Below are positions 16,030 to 46,833 of a stretch of DNA of 64,000 nt, piece by piece. Below the pieces are notes generated by a model, which saw nothing but the letters and a program-made list of their open reading frames with translations, was not told where the DNA came from and did no database searches. Position 1 is the first letter of the stretch, and each line of letters starts with the position of its first letter. The position numbers and the translations under genes are program-made. Source of the DNA: Octopus sinensis (lineage: Eukaryota); NCBI RefSeq assembly GCF_006345805.1, contig NC_043002.1, positions 106,888,001-106,952,000 of the forward strand. The letters are read 5' to 3'.

Positions 16030-16329
16030 CTAGCAGTATCGCCCGGCGTTGCTCGGGTTTGTAAGGGAAATAACTATATAAGCATTTTTAGAGAGTTACT
16101 TCCCTTATATAATAGCAAAAAAATGCATTAAAAATTGGGAAAAATTTATGGTGTATTTTTTTTTAAATCGTAGACTCATCGTAGACGCGCGCTAATACCC
16201 AGAAGGGCTCGATATGAATCACGACTATAAGATACCCACTTTTGGTTAAACTGCACCGCAAAATGTGGGAGTAGTTAAGAATCTAAATCGTAGGAGACAG
16301 ACACACAACTTCACTTTTATATATAAAGA
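16030..16329 (-). mobile_element. Non-autonomous Helitron
   Basis: Same family; TC...CCCG-agcaacgc-CGGG...CTAG; A^T insertion. Confidence 0.88.
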
Positions 16330-16330
16330 T

Positions 16331-16610
16331 TTAGCTTGACTTGAATTTATTAAGAAAATTCTTTTCCCTGATTTTTCTCTCAATTTCACATGGACTGTGT
16401 AGGTTGCAGAATGGAAATATATTTTCCGACCACATATTGCTAGAAGGTTACTCAAAGGTATCTGACGGACATCTAGATCTCTAATTTGCTGTTGGTACAC
16501 ACGTGAACCTTCTGATAGTGCATTTCCAGTTTGACCTATATATAGTTCTTCACAATTCAGGCATTTGATGCAGTAAATCAAATTTCTGCTACTGCAGTTC
16601 ATATTTGCAT
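16331..16610 (-). mobile_element. Penelope-like element GIY-YIG endonuclease fragment
   Basis: MNCSSRNLIYCIKCLNCEELYIGQTG: xIY...CxxC...YIG motif typical of PLE endonucleases; degenerate downstream; bounded by a SINE and a Helitron. Confidence 0.85.
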
Positions 16611-17006
16611 TTACTCTTTACTCTCTTTTACTTGTTTCAGTCATTTGACTGCGGCCATGCTGGAGCACCGTCTTTAGTCGAGCAAATCGACCCCGGGACT
16701 TATTCTTTGTAAGCCCAGTACTTATTCTAATGGTCTCTTTTGCCGAACCGCTAAGTGACGGGGACGTAAACACACCAGCACCGGTTGTCAAGCAATGCTA
16801 GGGGGACAAACACAGACACACAAACACACACATACATATATACGACAGGCTTCTTTCAGTTTCCGTCTACCAAATCCACTCACAAGGCATTGGTCGGCTC
16901 GGGGCTATAGCAGAAGATACTTGCCCAAGATGCCACGCAGTGGGACTGAACCCGGAACCATGTGGTTGGTTAGCAAGCTACTTACCACATAGCCACTCCT
17001 GCGCCT
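16611..17006 (-). mobile_element. SINE family A, full length
   Basis: Reverse complement of the family A pattern. Confidence 0.9.
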
Positions 17007-20260: not shown

Positions 20261-20557
20261 TCTTTATCATAATTTTAATAATAATTATTACCTATGAAGA
20301 TTTTATTCCCATGCTAGCCACTTGATATGATCGGTAATTTAAATAACGATCTTATCGTTATATATATACATATACATACATTATATATATATATATATAT
20401 ATATATATACAAAAAGCAATAAAGATTCAAGTTAATTTAAATGAATTTACTTGAATATGGTACCTAACTTAGATGCACCAAAAAAACTATACTGTTTTAA
20501 CAATACAGTAATGTGGGGTGATTATAAGCGAGAAAGAAGCAACAAGAATGGATAGGT

Positions 20558-20648
20558 TTTTAGTACAATCGTTTCATACAAGGACAGGCTTTATTAAAAG
20601 TTGCAAAAATTACAGCATATAAACGTGTCCCGTACTCATCAGCTAAAA
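20558..20648 (-). ncRNA. Mirror copy of the same hammerhead on the minus strand (left arm of palindrome)
   Basis: Reverse complement of 20693-20783 within the 20523-20818 inverted repeat. Confidence 0.72.
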
Positions 20649-20692
20649 TACATGAGTTCTCTAGACTAGGATGTCTAGAGAACTCACATGTA

Positions 20693-20783
20693 TTTTAGCT
20701 GATGAGTACGGGACACGTTTATATGCTGTAATTTTTGCAACTTTTAATAAAGCCTGTCCTTGTATGAAACGATTGTACTAAAA
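20693..20783 (+). ncRNA. Type-I hammerhead ribozyme with long loop II (right arm of palindrome)
   Basis: UUUUAG-CUGAUGA-GUACGGGACA...UGUCCUUGUAU-GAAA-C-GAUU-G-UA-CUAAAA; predicted GUA cleavage after 20777. Confidence 0.75.
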
Positions 20784-20812
20784 ACCTATCCATTCTTGTT
20801 GCTTCTTTCTCG

Positions 20813-20847
<35 letters not shown>

Positions 20848-23424: not shown

Positions 23425-24015
23425 TTATGTGGGCTCAACTGAAGGTTTTTCTGATTCCTGTCCAGGTAATTCCATTGTAACGTCACTTGATGCTGCAACG
23501 CCCATCATCAACTGATCGTGGGCCAGCATCATTGAGACAACTTGATCATAAGAAGGAGGTAAAGAATCGTAAGGCGGATCAGTTCTTGACAGTGGACAAT
23601 AGATACTCTGTAACACTTCTTGGTAGGAGGGCAGTTCTGCTACGCCAGCTGAAGACCAATTTGTATCAATGTTATTGTGAATAGTCTCTATGTTGTTGCT
23701 TCCATCTTCGACACGATTTCCACCGTTTTCGTCGATCGGACAAACTGTTTCTTCTCTACGTTTTTTCGCGATCAAAAACTGTTTAACTGACACTATCAAC
23801 ATTAGAAATGACAAAAGCAACAGAAACGGACCTGTGATCGATTCCCAGAATATGATATTCCATTCCAACCAGGTGATGATTATTCCCAAAAACAACAAAG
23901 TAACTGAAACTTTTGCAAACATCATTGCAAGTCGGAATTCTTTAATTCCTGGTTCCTGATCCGTGATGTTGTCAGAGGAAACATTCAGCTGGTCGACAAA
24001 TGCCATCGCGTGCAT
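23425..24015 (-). CDS. Intronless 196-aa two-transmembrane protein with C-terminal PY motifs (PIRT/TMEM100/TMEM171-like architecture)
   Basis: ATG-to-TAA ORF in a repeat-free, CpG-retaining block; two hydrophobic helices (the second starts with GP), basic stop-transfer KKRR, then LPSY and PPSY motifs. Confidence 0.85.
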   Translation of the reverse strand: MHAMAFVDQLNVSSDNITDQEPGIKEFRLAMMFAKVSVTLLFLGIIITWLEWNIIFWESITGPFLLLLSFLMLIVSVKQFLIAKKRREETVCPIDENGGNRVEDGSNNIETIHNNIDTNWSSAGVAELPSYQEVLQSIYCPLSRTDPPYDSLPPSYDQVVSMMLAHDQLMMGVAASSDVTMELPGQESEKPSVEPT

Positions 24016-25636
24016 CTTTATCTTCGAGGTTAATATTTCCCTGTCAGGGGGTGCCGATTTCTTTCAAATGAAGGGATAGGTGCCCGTAAATTTATAAATT
24101 TATTCTATTTTTGCCAAACACTTGGCATTCAGAAGTCATTCTTTGAATCAGTTGTTTTACGAGATATTCTCATTGAATATGATACAACAATGAAAGAAAC
24201 GTGTGTGTGTGTATGGATGTGTACATATTTTTTTTTCGTTGATTCAAAACGTTAAATAGCTGCAAAATAGTAAAGTGTTTTGTTTTATTCTACATTTCCA
24301 GGTGGTCCTCGAACAAAATGAAAATTCAGCATTTACATTTTATCACAAATTTCAACTCAGAAAACCTTTTTATTTTCAGGCACCCTTTTTTTTTTTCTTC
24401 AATCTCTTCCGATCATCAATGAGATTTTCATGTCTACAGGAATTCGAAAAAAAAAAAAAAAATTCTTGAAGTTTGTTTTGTTGTTGTTTTTTAAAATCCT
24501 TTGAAGAAATGCGTCCTTAACGCCGACCTCAAACGATGTTCTGACGTCGTCGTCAAAATCTGAAACCTAATTTCTCTTCCTCTCTCACACAACTGCGTTC
24601 GTTTCCGCTCTAATTTCCCAATAAACAGGTCTACTGGCCGAAATACCAACAAACTTGTGTTTAAAAATATGTTAAACAAGTGACTGTTGCAGACGAGTAT
24701 CACCGCTATTTCCAGTTGTATTTCATCTCCACAATTGCCAGAATTATTGAATAACACACACGACATAACAAATAAGTTGTAATGCAAACAAATCCCATTT
24801 TGGCGAAGGTAAAGAATACGCACACCCGGTGTTTAGGGTCAAGGTTTTTGTTTCACCGAAAACGGGTAGTGGTGCATATTCTTTACCTCCGACCCCATTT
24901 TGACACAGCAACTCTTCTCAACGAACGAGGGAACGTCTACAGTAGCTCAACCTGCTAGAAATAACAACCAAATCATACTCTACTGTCTATAAAAAAGAAC
25001 ACGTCGAATCATGCAGTCCTGGTTACAATATTTGGAAATAAACATGGGATGATCAAAAATCTACTCAATCAAGGGTGACCTAGGGCTAAGCAACAAGAAT
25101 TCTTCCTTGCCAATTTTGCTTTCCTTACTTCATAGCAGAAAATATTTTAACATTTCAATAACCGTTTCCTTTTTATTATTTGTTTAATTATGAATATCTT
25201 TTAGAAAAAGAAGAGTACAATTTCAGTTGTAGCAGAAGCATGTTCACTCTTTACCTTTAGGTATCCACATTTATGCCTCTTTACCTTTAGGTACCCGTTT
25301 TGGTTCATCCCTTGATGGTCCAGTCCACCTAGCTTTATGCAGGCTGTCCACCCCTTAACATGATCGACTAGTCAAGCATCCCAACATTAGCTATTTAGGG
25401 GAAGCTTCTCCCCACTAATTCCTTAGAGAGGTGAGTTGCAACAAGTGAGTTTGGATCTTCGACATGAGAGCAGTTTTATTCCATTTTGCTGCTTGAGTGA
25501 GGAGACAATTGTAGCAGGATTCCTTGATGCCATCCACGCTTGGTGTTTTTTTCCAACGTTCATCTTCATCTTTAAGCAGCACTTTGAAATTACAGATTTT
25601 GATAGATTTATCCATGTTATACCAGTCACTGTATTT

Positions 25637-41855: not shown

Positions 41856-41959
41856 CTGATCAGGGGACTGATCCTTTAGAGTAGAATTTCGATTTACCCG
41901 ACAATTATTCCAAGGGCTAAGACCTAGAGACACTGAATTTTCTAAACCATCACAGTCAC
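41856..41959 (-). CDS. GGNBP2: GGNBP2 probable coding exon
   Basis: tttccag|GT...CAG|gtaag; phase 1 to 0 exactly bridges the flanking exons; GDCDGLENSVSLGLSPWNNCRVNRNSTLKDQSPDQ; no strong homology recalled. Confidence 0.72.
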
Positions 41960-42936
41960 CTGGAAAATATATAAAAAGCCATATCACAAGAGGTTCAAAC
42001 TGAAGTTACACACGCACACTTCATTTATAAAATGAGACACCAGTTTCTGTCCCCCCCCCGTTTCACTAAAACCTTTCGTCATCCAACACAAGATGACCTC
42101 TTCCAATGCCTCCTCCCCTTTTATTGAAATCCTTTTATTTGTTTCAGTCATGTTGACTGCGGCCATGATGGAGCACCGCCTTCAGTCGAACACATTGACC
42201 CCAGGACTTATTCTTTGTAAGCCTAGTACTTATTCTATCAGTCTCTTCGCTGAATGGTTAGATTACGGGGACGTAAACACACCAACATCGGTTGTCAAGC
42301 AATGGTGGTGGGACAAACACACACACATATATATTCGACAGGCTTTCTTCAGTTTCTGTCTACTAAATCCACTCACAAGGCTTTGGTTGGCCCGAGGCTA
42401 TAGTAGAAGAAACTTGCCCAAGGTGCCACACAATGGGAATGAACTCAGAACCATGTGGCTGGTAAGCAAGCTACTTACCACACAGCCACACCTGCACCTA
42501 TCCTTTTTTGGTCTTGCAAGTAGTTGGTGACCCTGTCAGTGCAGGTGCCACTTAAAAAGCACCCAGTCCACACTGTAAAGTGGTTGGTGTTAGGAAGGGC
42601 ATCCAGCTGTAAAAATCCTTCCAAAACAATCACAGAAGTCTGGTGCAGGCTTCTGCCTGGCCAGCCCTTGTCAAACTGTCGCACCCGTGTTAGCATGGAA
42701 GGCAAACGTTAAACAATGATGATGATTTTACATTGATTACTGGCAGGCAAATCATATACATATCATCATCGTTTAATGTCCATTTTCCATGCTGGCATGT
42801 GTTGGACGGTTTGACTGAGGACTGGTAAGCCAGTGACTGCACCAGGCTCCAGTCTGATCTAGCAATGTTTCTACAGCTGGAAGCCCTTCCTAACGCCAAC
42901 CACTTGGAGAGTGTAGTGGGTGCTTTTTACGTGCCA

Positions 42937-43896
42937 CTGAATTAGGACTATATAAAATCATATAAGAAAACCATATCCAAGTTCATTAGAATGGAAAAAT
43001 GATTTTACTCCCAAAAGCAGTCACTCCTCAGGTCAAATTTCTAAAAAAACCTAAAAACTAATAATTGAAAGTTTAACTTACCTCATAATATAAGGAATAA
43101 AAAATAAGGATAAAAATATATAACTAAAGAAACAAAACCTGTAATGTAATCCCTAAGTTAAGGACATTAATATTAAAAGTTATGAACTAAAATGTTCAAA
43201 TAGAGTATTATTGTGAACATGATTAATTCATTATGGAGAAGGTAAATAAATGTAAATCCGTGTTAGTGTATAATGTCGATATTGTTTAGAATAAATTTAA
43301 AAAACATGACTTAACACCAACCACTCAGCAGAGTGGACTTAATGCTTTTTATGTGACACAAGCATGAGCGAGGTCAGTTTTGGCAAGGTTTTTATAGCTG
43401 ACTACCCTTTCAAATGTCAACCATTTACAGTGTGGGCTGGATGCTTTTTAAGTGGCACCTGCACTGATGGTCATTAAGTACCTTGCAAGACAAAAAAAAG
43501 TCATGTTTTTTTAATTTATTCTAAACAATATTAACATTCATCTTTTATTAACTTTATCCACTAACACGGATTTACATTTATTTACCTTCTCCATAATGAA
43601 TTAATCATGTTCACAATAATACTCATATTTAAATATTTTGGTTCGTAACGTTTAATAAAATTAATGTCCTTAACTTAGAGATTACATTACAGGTTTTGTT
43701 TCTTTAGTTATATATTTTTATCCCTTATTTTTTATTCCTTATATTATAAGGTAAGTTAAACTTTCAATTATTAGTTTTTAGGGCTTTTTTAGAAATTCGA
43801 CCTGAGGAGTGACTGCTTTTGGGAGTAAAATCATTTTCCCATTCTAATGAACTTGGATATGGTTTTCTTATCTGATTTTATATAATCATAATTCAG
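42937..43896. repeat. Long diverged inverted repeat (arms about 380-400 bp) in a GGNBP2 intron
   Basis: 42937-43312 is the reverse complement of 43498-43896 with scattered substitutions and indels; spacer is a decayed (GAT)n-family repeat. Confidence 0.92.
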
Positions 43897-43918
43897 CCAT
43901 GAAACGTGCGTAGTCAAT
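43795..43918 (+). ncRNA. Type-I hammerhead ribozyme with long loop II, antisense in a GGNBP2 intron
   Basis: auucGAC-CUGAGGA-GUGACUG...CAGCCAU-GAAA-C-GUGC-G-UA-GUCaau; core 43802-43808, GAAA 43901-43904, GUA cleavage after 43912; one mismatch in stem II. Confidence 0.68.
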
Positions 43919-44323
43919 GTACAAGTACTTACTTTTATACATTATATTATAGTATTAATTTTTATGGTTCAATTTATACTTTATTTGACTTTAGATTAAT
44001 ATTTTTTTGATGAATGTTTCTTTGTGTAATATTCGCTGTGATTTTAAAAGTATTTGCTCTTCTATATTATATGATTGTAATAATCTCACAGTTCAATATT
44101 ATATATTATTAAAATTTTAGACTAGTATTTTGTATGGTATGTCTCACAGCATGGTTTTGGAAGGGTTCTTCATTGACTGAGTTGTGGAATGGTGGTTTGT
44201 CTCTAAATTAGTTATATACATATATTATATATTACGAAATTCGGCATAATATTATTATACTGAATTTTACCTGTAAGGTTGGAATAATAATTTATTCCCT
44301 AATATTATTATTATTACTATATA

Positions 44324-44398
<75 letters not shown>

Positions 44399-44411
44399 TA
44401 CACGCACACGT

Positions 44412-44722
44412 AGAGGCACAATGGCCCAGTGGTTAGGGCAGCGGACTCGTGGTCGTAGGATCGCGGTTTCAATTCCCAGACCGGGCGTTGTGAGTGTTTA
44501 TTGAGCGAAAGCACCCAAAGCTCCACGATGTTACGGCAGGGGGTGGGTGGCGATCCCTGCTGTACTCTTTCGCCACAACTTTATCTCACTCTTTCTTCTG
44601 TTGGCCTGCTCGCTTAGCCAGCGGGGTGGCGTCATTTGAAGGCTAAAACAATGCGAAGCGCATTGTGACCAGCAATGTGTGGCAACATCTGATAGCCTGT
44701 TCGGTCACGGTGATCACGGTGA
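44412..44722 (+). mobile_element. SINE family C (alternative 3' module)
   Basis: Closely similar to 13979-14260. Confidence 0.88.
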
Positions 44723-45105
44723 TACACACACACACACAATCCCTGCTTATGACAATTATTTGCTTGGGAAGAGGATATTAAAATATTAGGAGAGCATGTA
44801 TGTGATTGTGTGTACATACATATGCATTTTTGTTTATTTTCAAGGCTGTTCTCCCATGCTAATGTGAGTTACAGGTATGCGTTATCAATGCATTGTTTTA
44901 CAGCCAAATCCCCTTCCTGTTGCTAACCCCTACCAGTCTTTCCAGGACGGGTTCATCTATTCCTCATTGTACTTAACTCGTTGAATCTTTGTCAAACCAC
45001 TCATCCCATGCCAGCATTAAACATAGACATTAAATGATGATCATCATCCTCATGTTCATCTTCAAAAGTGCAAACCCAGCAAAAAAAGTTTTTTAATACC
45101 AATAA

Positions 45106-45508
45106 GCGCAGGAGTGGCTGTGTGGTAAGTAGCTTGCTAACCGACCACATGGTTCCGGGTTCAGTCCCACTGCGTGGCATCTTGGGCTAGTGTCTTCTGC
45201 TATAGCCTCGGGCCGACCAATGCCTTGTGGGTGGATTTGGCAGACGGAAACTGAAAGAAGCCTGTCGTATATATGTACATATATGTATGTGTATGTGTGT
45301 TTGTGTGTCTGTGTTTGTCCCCCTAGCATTGCTTGAAAACCGATGCTGGTGTGTTTGCGTCCCCGTCACTTAGCGGTTCGGCAAAAAGAGACCGATAGAA
45401 TAAGTACTGGGCTTACAAAGAATAAGTCCCGGGGTCGATTTGCTCGACTGAAGGCGGTGCTCCAGCATGGCCGCAGTCCAATGACTGAAACAAGTAAAAG
45501 AGTAAAAG
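45106..45508 (+). mobile_element. tRNA-derived SINE family A (CORE-like), full length
   Basis: GCAGGAGTGGCTGTGTGGTAAG head with B-box-like GGTTCAGTCCC, internal (TA/TG)n, GTAAAAGA tail; further copies at about 3160-3541, 18000-18397, 21932-22295, 33510-33720, 42133-42498, 61149-61559 and 63774-64000. Confidence 0.9.
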
Positions 45509-45680
45509 AAATGACAACACCACCACCACCACTTGTAGCTCAGCACTTTTTGGAGAAAGCTAACTGTAAATACACACACACACACACACACATATATTGG
45601 ACAAGCTTCTTTTAGCCTTTGTCAACCAGATCCACTCAAAACCGAAATGTCTTGCTACAGAATATGAAAATAGCATTTAC

Positions 45681-46332
45681 CTTTTTGATGAAGAAAGTCT
45701 TCTAAACACATCACATCTGCATTCTCATTGGAACCTTGTAGTCCACAATTTTCACAGCCTTCTGCTCCTGATGAATACCCACAATCACTTCCGTTACTTG
45801 TCGTATAGTTGGAACCAACAGAATTTAAAGTTGTAGTAGTTGATGAGGACGACGATGAAGATGATGACGACGAAGAGGTGGCCATCCTATCTACGTTATG
45901 AACCAGGTCGCAACACCGCCCCATGTTGTAGTACTCAGCGTCCTCATCATCATCATCATCTGCCTCTGTAGTCATTGTATGCTTGCTATTGCTACTGCTA
46001 TTACTACTACTACTACTGCTGCTACTACTGCTACTACTACTACTAGTGGTTTTAGTGGCGATGTTTGAAGTTGTTGTTGGCCGACATCTGCGACCGCACC
46101 GGTGTGTTAGCAGAGATGGTGGCGATGTAGACTGCTCTCGTTGTAGTACCCTAGATTTTGACACAGCCTTACCACAACAGGGCGCCTTCATATCTGCCAC
46201 CTTTCGATAAATTTCATTGGCTGCCTTCTGACAGTTCTCTATGGAAACCAGTTTCATGTCATGATCGCTTCTGGAGATTTCCTTGTGACGACCATTGTAA
46301 ATTCTAGAACTTTTCTTTGGACTATTATCACA
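45681..46332 (-). CDS. GGNBP2: GGNBP2 large low-complexity coding exon
   Basis: ttttctag|TGT...AAAG|gtaaat; 652 nt open, in frame with track ORF 45655-46257; contains SDCGYSSG as recalled from GGNBP2 homologues, plus poly-Ser and poly-Asp tracts. Confidence 0.88.
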
Positions 46333-46494: not shown

Positions 46495-46833
46495 TTGAAA
46501 TATACAGATAAGGAGATAGTTTATTCTCAAGTGCAGAATAATGCATGAATAGGATAGAACATCCTTATATTGCAGAAAAATTTGTCAGCAGCCAGCCACG
46601 AGACTCGAACTCACATCTCTGTGATTACTGGTCAAGTGCTTTACCATTAAGCTAAACTGCCCACTCACAAATTTTTCTGCAATTTTTGACTGGTAATCAC
46701 AGAGATGCGAGTTCGAGTCTCGTGGCTGGCCGCTGACAAATTTTTCTGCAATATAAGGTTAATGTCCTATTCATGCTACTCATGCATTATTCTGTGCTTG
46801 AGAATAAATTATCTCCATATCTGTATATTTCAA
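46495..46833. repeat. Inverted repeat (arms about 140 bp) built around a tRNA-like sequence
   Basis: 46495-46635 pairs with 46686-46833. Confidence 0.9.
46588..46662 (-). pseudogene. tRNA-like pseudogene or tRNA-derived head (Thr-like anticodon loop)
   Basis: GGGCAGTTTAGCTTAATGGTAAAGCAC...GAGTTCGAGTCTC...GCTGGCT: A box, B box and T-arm present; acceptor and anticodon stems mismatched; loop CCAGTAA here versus CTGGTAA in the partial mirror copy. Confidence 0.6.

What the first reader, a model, noticed from the sequence alone, without database searches (positions are those of the whole stretch)
42937..43918. Intronic fold-back in GGNBP2 in which only the antisense hammerhead is complete
Seen: arms of about 380-400 bp. 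The plus-strand arm, antisense to GGNBP2, holds a full hammerhead (CUGAGGA 43802, loop II of about 78 nt, GAAA-C-GUGC-G-UA). The arm read in the GGNBP2 sense direction keeps CUGAGGA (43025-43031) but ends at 42937, just before the GAAA half, where a family E repeat begins. The architecture matches the 20.7-kb ribozyme (G-U closing stem II, large loop II, 4-nt loop III, GUA) despite dissimilar sequence. Inference: a large-loop-II hammerhead subclass, with possible selection against a sense-oriented self-cleaver in the host pre-mRNA.
Basis: partly seen in the sequence, partly recalled or inferred. Interest (0 to 1): 0.72.

Follow-up and report, generated by a model that had tools for sequence, protein, structure and literature searches.

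The report
Penelope retroelement stub with long-armed hammerhead
The fold-back in this cephalopod gene's intron is the decayed, back-to-back tail of a Penelope-like jumping gene; its hammerhead motif belongs to a long-armed type with over 13,000 matches in this genome, and the missing half in the sense arm is likely an accident of insertion or decay, not a sign that the host purged a self-cutting RNA.

Summary
Arms 42937-43312 and 43498-43896 are 90% identical and lie in a GGNBP2-like intron; only the antisense arm has a full hammerhead core. Both arms are the 3' end of a Hydra-clade Penelope-like element (PLE), in the known inverted 5'-truncated layout.

Selection against a sense ribozyme is not supported, but the genome-wide orientation test could not be run. 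Six of 31 other copies with the same 5' half also lack the GAAA half. Intact sense hammerheads occur in other introns. In the pre-mRNA the sense arm is predicted to zip into a ~376-bp rod. The 'complete' arm is the more decayed one. The stem II mismatch is family-wide, and G-U closure is already in print.

The long-arm class is real: 13,526 core matches with a 38-99-nt helix II domain against 925 short ones (84 and 47 in controls), with covariation across 23 families. It is often a long hairpin, not a loop. The published descriptor (loop 2 at most 10 nt) and Rfam miss it. Cleavage is untested. This scan reported long-armed PLE hammerheads before on other DNA.

The parts
41958..45678 (-). Host intron of a GGNBP2-like gene (exons 45679-45977 and 41856-41957 flank it)
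42762..42937 (+). SINE-like 'family E' copy, cut at the junction with the left arm; no (TA)n and no remainder of the PLE arm on this side
42937..43312 (-). Left arm: inverted, 5'- and 3'-truncated copy of the PLE 3' UTR, sense to the host gene; holds stem I 5' strand, CUGAGGA and most of domain II, lacks GAAA and the cleavage site
43025..43031 (-). CUGAGGA half core of the left arm
43313..43497 (+). Spacer: second family-E-type copy with an A-rich 3' end, sitting at the exact centre of the palindrome (inferred later insertion or capture)
43498..44317 (+). Right arm: 5'-truncated 3' end of a Hydra-clade Penelope-like element; common family 3' end near 44232, optional tail to about 44317
43799..43915 (+). 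Type I hammerhead motif, 92-nt domain II, 2-bp stem III with near-palindromic loop, predicted cut after A43912; decayed at 43798, 43872, 43885, 43888, 43907
44318..44385 (.). (TA)n run at the element's 3' end, the reported target of Hydra-clade PLEs
20523..20818 (.). Comparison locus: two-armed insertion of an unrelated, very young repeat family with a complete hammerhead on each strand (20699 +, 20642 -)

Best explanation
The fold-back is a decayed two-armed insertion of a repeat whose longer copies carry Hydra-type Penelope reverse-transcriptase and endonuclease remnants, and the sense arm likely lost its GAAA half by ordinary short copying or later deletion rather than by selection against self-cleavage. 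Steps. Shown: the hammerhead lies in the 3' UTR, about 0.9 kb behind the endonuclease remnant, on the coding strand. Inferred: the cDNA stopped about 330 nt upstream of the ribozyme, and a second, inverted copy was made from the same template and the same 5' point. Inferred: a SINE-like copy entered the centre of the palindrome, and the outer end of the left arm was never made or was deleted with its (TA)n flank. Predicted: in the GGNBP2 pre-mRNA the complement is transcribed first, so the sense arm zips into a ~376-bp duplex and could not fold as a ribozyme even if whole. Inferred from published PLE hammerheads: in the active element the motif cuts slowly after GUA, as a dimer joined through the palindromic loop III and probably with help from the element's protein, so a lone intronic copy is likely inert. 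The long helix II is a conserved structural arm; its role (protein docking is my best guess) is untested.
For: Repeat family: 42 matches at 87-100% (40 of 99 candidates scored). Protein remnants upstream on the same strand in L056, L006, L067, L073: DKT, GLYRDD, CxCX5C linker, YIG, CxxC and CxH around the conserved E and N, matching the Hydra definition; one 769-aa homologue at 30%. Inverted 5'-truncated copies are described PLE anatomy. Half hammerheads are common: 7 of 32 exact 5'-half matches examined (of 33 listed) lack the 3' half, 6 of 31 without the window. In the 3 other insertions where both arms carry CUGAGGA from a shared 5' junction (L004, L012, L033) the inverted arm also stops before GAAA. 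Intact sense copies in introns: a both-complete pair in intron 1 of an NT5DC3-like gene, G000:C4:66493014 (-, sense) and 66494240 (+), and two tandem sense motifs at G000:C22:24895495 and 24893615 between collinear PF05761 exons. Both cores complete in 17 of 28 loci of the 20.7-kb family. The window's full motif costs 10.7 kcal/mol to adopt the hammerhead fold against 4.4 and 5.2 for two family peers. PLE hammerhead monomers showed no cleavage; PAc needed its protein; slow intronic hammerhead cleavage did not block splicing (second-hand).
Against: No genome-wide orientation count was possible: host exons were found in 2 of 60 flanking loci and 0 of 20 paired loci. The C22 exons are assumed to be one gene; 50 kb between them was not fetched. 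HHR-bearing retrozymes are depleted from introns in Xenopus, so some purifying selection on such repeats is plausible. The cause of the left-arm truncation (1-nt overlap at the junction) cannot be read from one genome. The 15 versus 2 private substitutions between arms are not explained.
Confidence: 0.8

Rival explanations
1. Selection against a sense-oriented self-cleaver: a complete sense hammerhead would cut the GGNBP2 pre-mRNA 1 kb before the 3' splice site, so alleles with the GAAA half deleted were favoured, and such bias exists genome-wide.
For: Truncation falls between the two core halves in the sense arm. L074 (same strand as a host exon, GAAA broken) and L083 (antisense, intact) point the same way. 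Retrozymes are depleted in Xenopus introns. Fast ribozymes can abort splicing (second-hand).
Against: 19% base rate of the same truncation elsewhere; intact sense copies in introns; duplex masking; short palindromic helix III impedes monomer cleavage.
Confidence: 0.1
2. The fold-back is kept as a functional double-stranded RNA element of GGNBP2 (editing substrate or splicing aid), the ribozyme being incidental.
For: Predicted ~376-bp rod in the pre-mRNA, nested in a second 400-nt inverted SINE pair at 42132-42501 and 45102-45500 whose outer ends lie about 175 nt from each splice site. Heavy A-to-I editing in cephalopods is recalled, not from a call.
Against: The arms have drifted to 90% with a 17-nt deletion and no sign of compensation; such palindromes are common debris. 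Editing was not measurable with contigs.
Confidence: 0.07
3. The plus-strand motif is active in an antisense transcript and regulates GGNBP2.
For: All core nucleotides are intact.
Against: Stem I is cut to 3 bp by a private change, the helix II extension is damaged, and the minimum-energy fold is not the hammerhead (z -0.17); no same-strand partner motif was found by the descriptor nearer than 23 kb.
Confidence: 0.03

Closest known systems
Hydra-clade C-terminal-EN Penelope-like elements, e.g. Hydra-1_Obim, Penelope-13_HM (Craig et al. 2021, PMC8557442; passages and supplement Files S1 part and S2 read)
   Same: DKT motif, CxCX5C linker, CxxC and CxH around E and N, (TA)n target, hammerhead near the 3' end with small palindromic stem III, inverted 5'-truncated copy (listed for Penelope-13_HM), G-U at the base of helix II in some members.
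   Different: Listed Hydra hammerheads have loop 2 of 3-10 nt; here domain II is 92 nt (38-99 nt across families). The 3' UTR is longer (about 1.3 kb). The window holds no ORF.
Type I hammerheads of metazoan PLEs with palindromic helix III (Cervera and De la Pena 2014, PMC4209133; main text parts 1-2 of 4 and whole supplement read)
   Same: Type I topology, 2-bp helix III with palindromic loop, short helix I, opposite-strand pairs 100-700 bp apart, G-U closure in several listed examples.
   Different: Their descriptor allows stem II of 3-7 bp and loop 2 of 3-10 nt, so it cannot find these. No extra nucleotide between A9 and G10.1 here.
PAc (Poseidon) hammerhead (Frangieh et al. 2024, PMC11167929; passages read)
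   Same: PLE pLTR hammerhead; alternative 3' ends giving an optional tail, as seen here (near 44232 and near 44317).
   Different: Other clade; short helix II; cleavage shown only with protein. Not tested here.
PLE-X hammerheads of spike mosses (File S2 of PMC8557442) and the discontinuous Clec2 hammerhead (review passage, PMC6765202)
   Same: Long inserts between core halves are tolerated: loop 2 of 29-35 nt in PLE-X, several hundred nt in Clec2.
   Different: Isolated cases marked as deviating; here the long arm is the majority form of this architecture.

Membership tests
Hydra-clade PLE | RT followed by C-terminal GIY-YIG endonuclease | tested here: met
   Broken frames in long copy L056: RT motifs then YIG; homologue P0001. 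Pfam gave no RT or GIY-YIG hit on these pieces. Not present in the window itself.
Hydra-clade PLE | DKT in place of DKG | tested here: met
   VVQSDKTG in L056 (definition)
Hydra-clade PLE | CxCX5C linker; CxxC and CxH beside the conserved E and N; no CCHH | tested here: met
   CNCRSKTKC in L056; FCLCT..E and KCRH in L006; read by eye from broken frames
Hydra-clade PLE | Insertion into (TA)n | tested here: met
   44318-44385 in the window and many family 3' ends; absent at the left arm's outer end
Hydra-clade PLE | RT phylogeny with reference Hydra proteins | not tested
   No tree was built
Penelope/Poseidon clade | DKG motif, CCHH in the endonuclease, no Zn-finger linker | tested here: not met
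   DKT and a CxCX5C linker instead; my first assignment, dropped
Type I hammerhead ribozyme | Core CUGANGA, GAAA, UH in order | tested here: met
   Window + arm; 26 of 30 family copies
Type I hammerhead ribozyme | Helices I-III supported by covariation | tested here: met
   23 long families picked by core pattern only: II.2-6 paired 85 of 115 (permutation mean 44.6, max 65 of 5000), I.1-3 53 of 69 (27.8, max 42), loop III palindrome 42 of 46 (25.2, max 34)
Type I hammerhead ribozyme | This copy can adopt the fold | tested here: inconclusive
   10.7 kcal/mol above the ensemble, P(helix II) about 0; prediction only
Type I hammerhead ribozyme | Self-cleavage after NUH | not testable with these tools
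   Needs an in vitro assay
Rfam hammerhead families | Covariance-model match | tested here: not met
   No hammerhead family among 50 hits at E<=1 in the window
Non-LTR retrozyme | Non-coding head-to-tail units each with a hammerhead | tested here: not met
   Dispersed 5'-truncated copies of a coding element

The most novel reading that the evidence does not exclude
Hydra-clade PLEs of this cephalopod use a hammerhead class that published searches cannot see: a dimer-type core with a 38-99-nt structured helix II, found over 13,000 times. The long arm is the docking site for the element's own protein, so cutting happens only in the retroelement particle, which is why intact copies can sit sense in host introns without harm.
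Probability: 0.2. Interest if true: 0.62.

Novelty: new variant of a known kind. Interest (0 to 1): 0.33.

Why it matters
The locus itself is ordinary retroelement debris. The class it belongs to matters more: counts of genomic hammerheads rest on descriptors that cap loop 2 at about 10 nt, and in this genome long-armed cores outnumber short ones of the same architecture about 15 to 1. Young families with identical copies give ready constructs to test what PLE hammerheads do, which is still open. With a gene annotation, 13,000 oriented copies would allow a direct test of whether hosts purge sense-oriented ribozymes from introns.

Tried and rejected
G-U closure as mere CpG decay: fits the sister family (CACG, CATG, CACA mixed) but is rejected as a general rule, since the 20.7-kb family has at least 40 identical copies with U and 23 of 26 intact family A cores have G-U. 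Poseidon assignment: dropped for Hydra. Arms ending at the cleavage site: not seen; internal ends scatter from about -310 to +340 around the core. Family E inserting into the arm: no remainder of the arm on its far side. Orientation test by Pfam on flanking ORFs: 299 of 4,848 candidates from 60 loci gave host exons in 2 loci; 150 of 4,429 candidates from 20 paired loci, after I dropped by eye ORFs that looked transposon-derived, gave none. Expression and editing: no RNA holder on record was listed; only contigs were available, with almost no cover of the arms, which is no evidence either way. The gene context of the 20.7-kb element was not determined. Pfam and the protein atlas did not name the host gene; the homologue search did. 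Lunse et al. 2017 and Arkhipova et al. 2017 were not held; either, or their supplements, may list long-helix-II PLE hammerheads. Literature searches; none returned a description of this class or of orientation bias for PLE hammerheads.

Full report
Observation. The fold-back is real: 42937-43312 pairs with 43896-43498 at 90% over 399 columns, and the minus-strand RNA folds as one rod of -576 kcal/mol. The plus arm holds CUGAGGA (43802), a 92-nt domain II, GAAA (43901), C-GUGC-G and UA, with a predicted cut after 43912. The minus arm keeps CUGAGGA and stops 4 nt before GAAA, at a SINE-like repeat. RNA-type contigs and splice dinucleotides place it in intron 41958-45678 of a minus-strand gene whose exon is 85% identical to a cuttlefish GGNBP2-like protein. 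Rfam finds no hammerhead in the window.

What the repeat is. The motif has 42 matches at 87-100% in G000 (lower bound), and the element runs past the fold-back to about 44232, with a tail to about 44317 and a (TA)n run. Longer copies carry, upstream and on the same strand, broken frames with DKT, GLYRDD, a CxCX5C linker, YIG, and CxxC and CxH around the conserved E and N. These are the features that define the Hydra clade of Penelope-like elements (PMC8557442, passages). I first called it Poseidon; earlier notes of this scan pointed to Hydra and the motifs confirmed it. No tree was built. An inverted 5'-truncated copy beside the main one is described PLE anatomy, and opposite-strand hammerhead pairs 100-700 bp apart were reported in 2014 (PMC4209133).

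History of this insertion (inferred). Both arms start at the same base and share rare variants (0 of 23 and 0 of 36 other copies at two sites), so they come from one template. A second family-E-type copy with an A-rich end fills the centre. The left arm's outer end has no (TA)n and no remainder beyond the flanking repeat, so it was either copied short or deleted later; one genome cannot tell which. Against the family majority the right arm has 15 private substitutions and the left 2 over 362 columns (p=0.002). I cannot explain this. Four of these changes hit stem I and the helix II extension, so the 'complete' motif is the more decayed: its hammerhead fold costs 10.7 kcal/mol against 4.4 and 5.2 for two peers, and its best fold is no better than shuffles.

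Is the sense truncation selected? Of 32 exact matches to the 5' half that I examined (33 listed), 7 lack the 3' half, 6 of 31 without this locus. In the three other insertions where both arms carry CUGAGGA from a shared junction, the inverted arm also stops before GAAA (L004, L012, L033). Their gene context is unknown. Insertions with both cores complete are frequent: 17 of 28 loci of the 20.7-kb family, and by my hand count 44 of the first 100 matches form such pairs. In the same search I found two tandem sense cores between collinear PF05761 exons on C22 (one gene assumed, 50 kb not fetched). Against my reading: L083 is antisense and intact, L074 shares the strand of a CARD exon and has a broken GAAA, the C4 pair is very young, and retrozymes are depleted from Xenopus introns (bioRxiv 10.64898/2026.07.22.740005, passages). 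Eight oriented arms cannot test a bias. Mechanism also argues against a need for selection. In a head-to-head insert the antisense arm is transcribed first and masks the sense arm. Short palindromic helix III motifs do not cut as monomers (review PMC6765202, passages). PAc cuts only with its protein (PMC11167929, passages). Slow intronic hammerhead cuts did not stop splicing (PMC2995048, passages citing Dye 2006 and Fong 2009).

The long-arm class. An exact pattern for the core with G10.1, Y11.1, a 2-bp stem III, a 4-nt loop and GUA gave 12,019 matches with a 38-68-nt domain II, 1,507 with 69-99 nt and 925 with 7-37 nt; reversed controls gave 43, 41 and 47. The pattern does not count minimal hammerheads without loop III, and some matches are retrozyme-like arrays, so 'majority' holds for this architecture only. 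The 75 fetched matches fell into 28 families, 23 long. With one copy per family and no pairing used in selection, helix II, helix I and the loop III palindrome all covary beyond 5,000 permutations (85 of 115, 53 of 69, 42 of 46). Domain II often folds as an irregular hairpin, but support is mixed: z below -1.5 in 10 of 23 families, median -1.3. G-U and G-C both close helix II (13 and 10 families). The A.C at the fourth pair is shared by this family and its sister, so it should not be 'repaired'. I linked only this family to PLE protein remnants; the other families were not checked.

Comparison with print. The 2014 descriptor caps stem II at 7 bp and loop 2 at 10 nt (supplement), and its 56 examples include G-U closures. 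Hydra hammerheads in File S2 of PMC8557442 have loops of 3-10 nt; two spike-moss PLE-X motifs have 29-35 nt and are marked as deviating. 'Long helix II' in viral type I hammerheads means 6-8 bp (PMC13725137, passages). PMC3088659 and PMC10085705 were read in passages. Seven searches returned no description of this class. Two key papers were not held and may bear on novelty. Earlier agents of this scan reported long-armed PLE hammerheads in this and other genomes.

Verdict. The locus is ordinary retroelement debris, likely inert; confidence 0.8. The orientation idea is unproven and unlikely (0.1). The long-armed hammerhead is a real new variant of a known kind, untested for cleavage. Interest 0.33.

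Noticed in passing
window 42132-42501 and 45102-45500: A second inverted pair (400-nt SINE-like copies, 80%) brackets the fold-back in the same intron; its outer ends lie about 175 nt from the 3' and 5' splice sites.
   Followed up: no
window 20523-20818: Two-armed insertion of a very young family: at least 40 identical matches among 696 candidates, both hammerheads complete, two fixed 3' ends about 25-30 nt apart. Gene context not determined.
   Followed up: partly
window 43498-43896 vs 42937-43312: Private substitutions are lopsided, 15 in the right arm and 2 in the left (p=0.002), with no A-to-G bias. Unexplained.
   Followed up: partly
window 46590-46661 (-): tRNA-like match above the Rfam gathering score (36.4 bits) inside a GGNBP2 intron.
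   Followed up: no
window 23428-24063 (-): 212-aa open frame with a weak TMEM51 match (E 2e-4, below cut-off).
   Followed up: no
window 16249-16617 (-): Remnant that looks like a GIY-YIG endonuclease with a preceding cysteine motif, probably another PLE clade; read by eye, no Pfam support.
   Followed up: no
L033:4985-5142: Both arms of this insertion carry the same ~75-nt extra sequence inside domain II, and the core halves of the main arm remain.
   Followed up: no
L199 (G000:C1:17881902-17881942): A short form of the sister family's helix II (22-nt domain) with the same A.C mismatch; a natural arm-less control for assays.
   Followed up: no
G000:C2:27922321-27935037; G000:C1:4297863-4299124: Tandem hammerhead arrays with periods near 550 and 400 nt, retrozyme-like.
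   Followed up: no
L016, L017, L051, L053, L072, L075: Several family copies begin 347-369 nt upstream of the core, a possible preferred RNA start.
   Followed up: no
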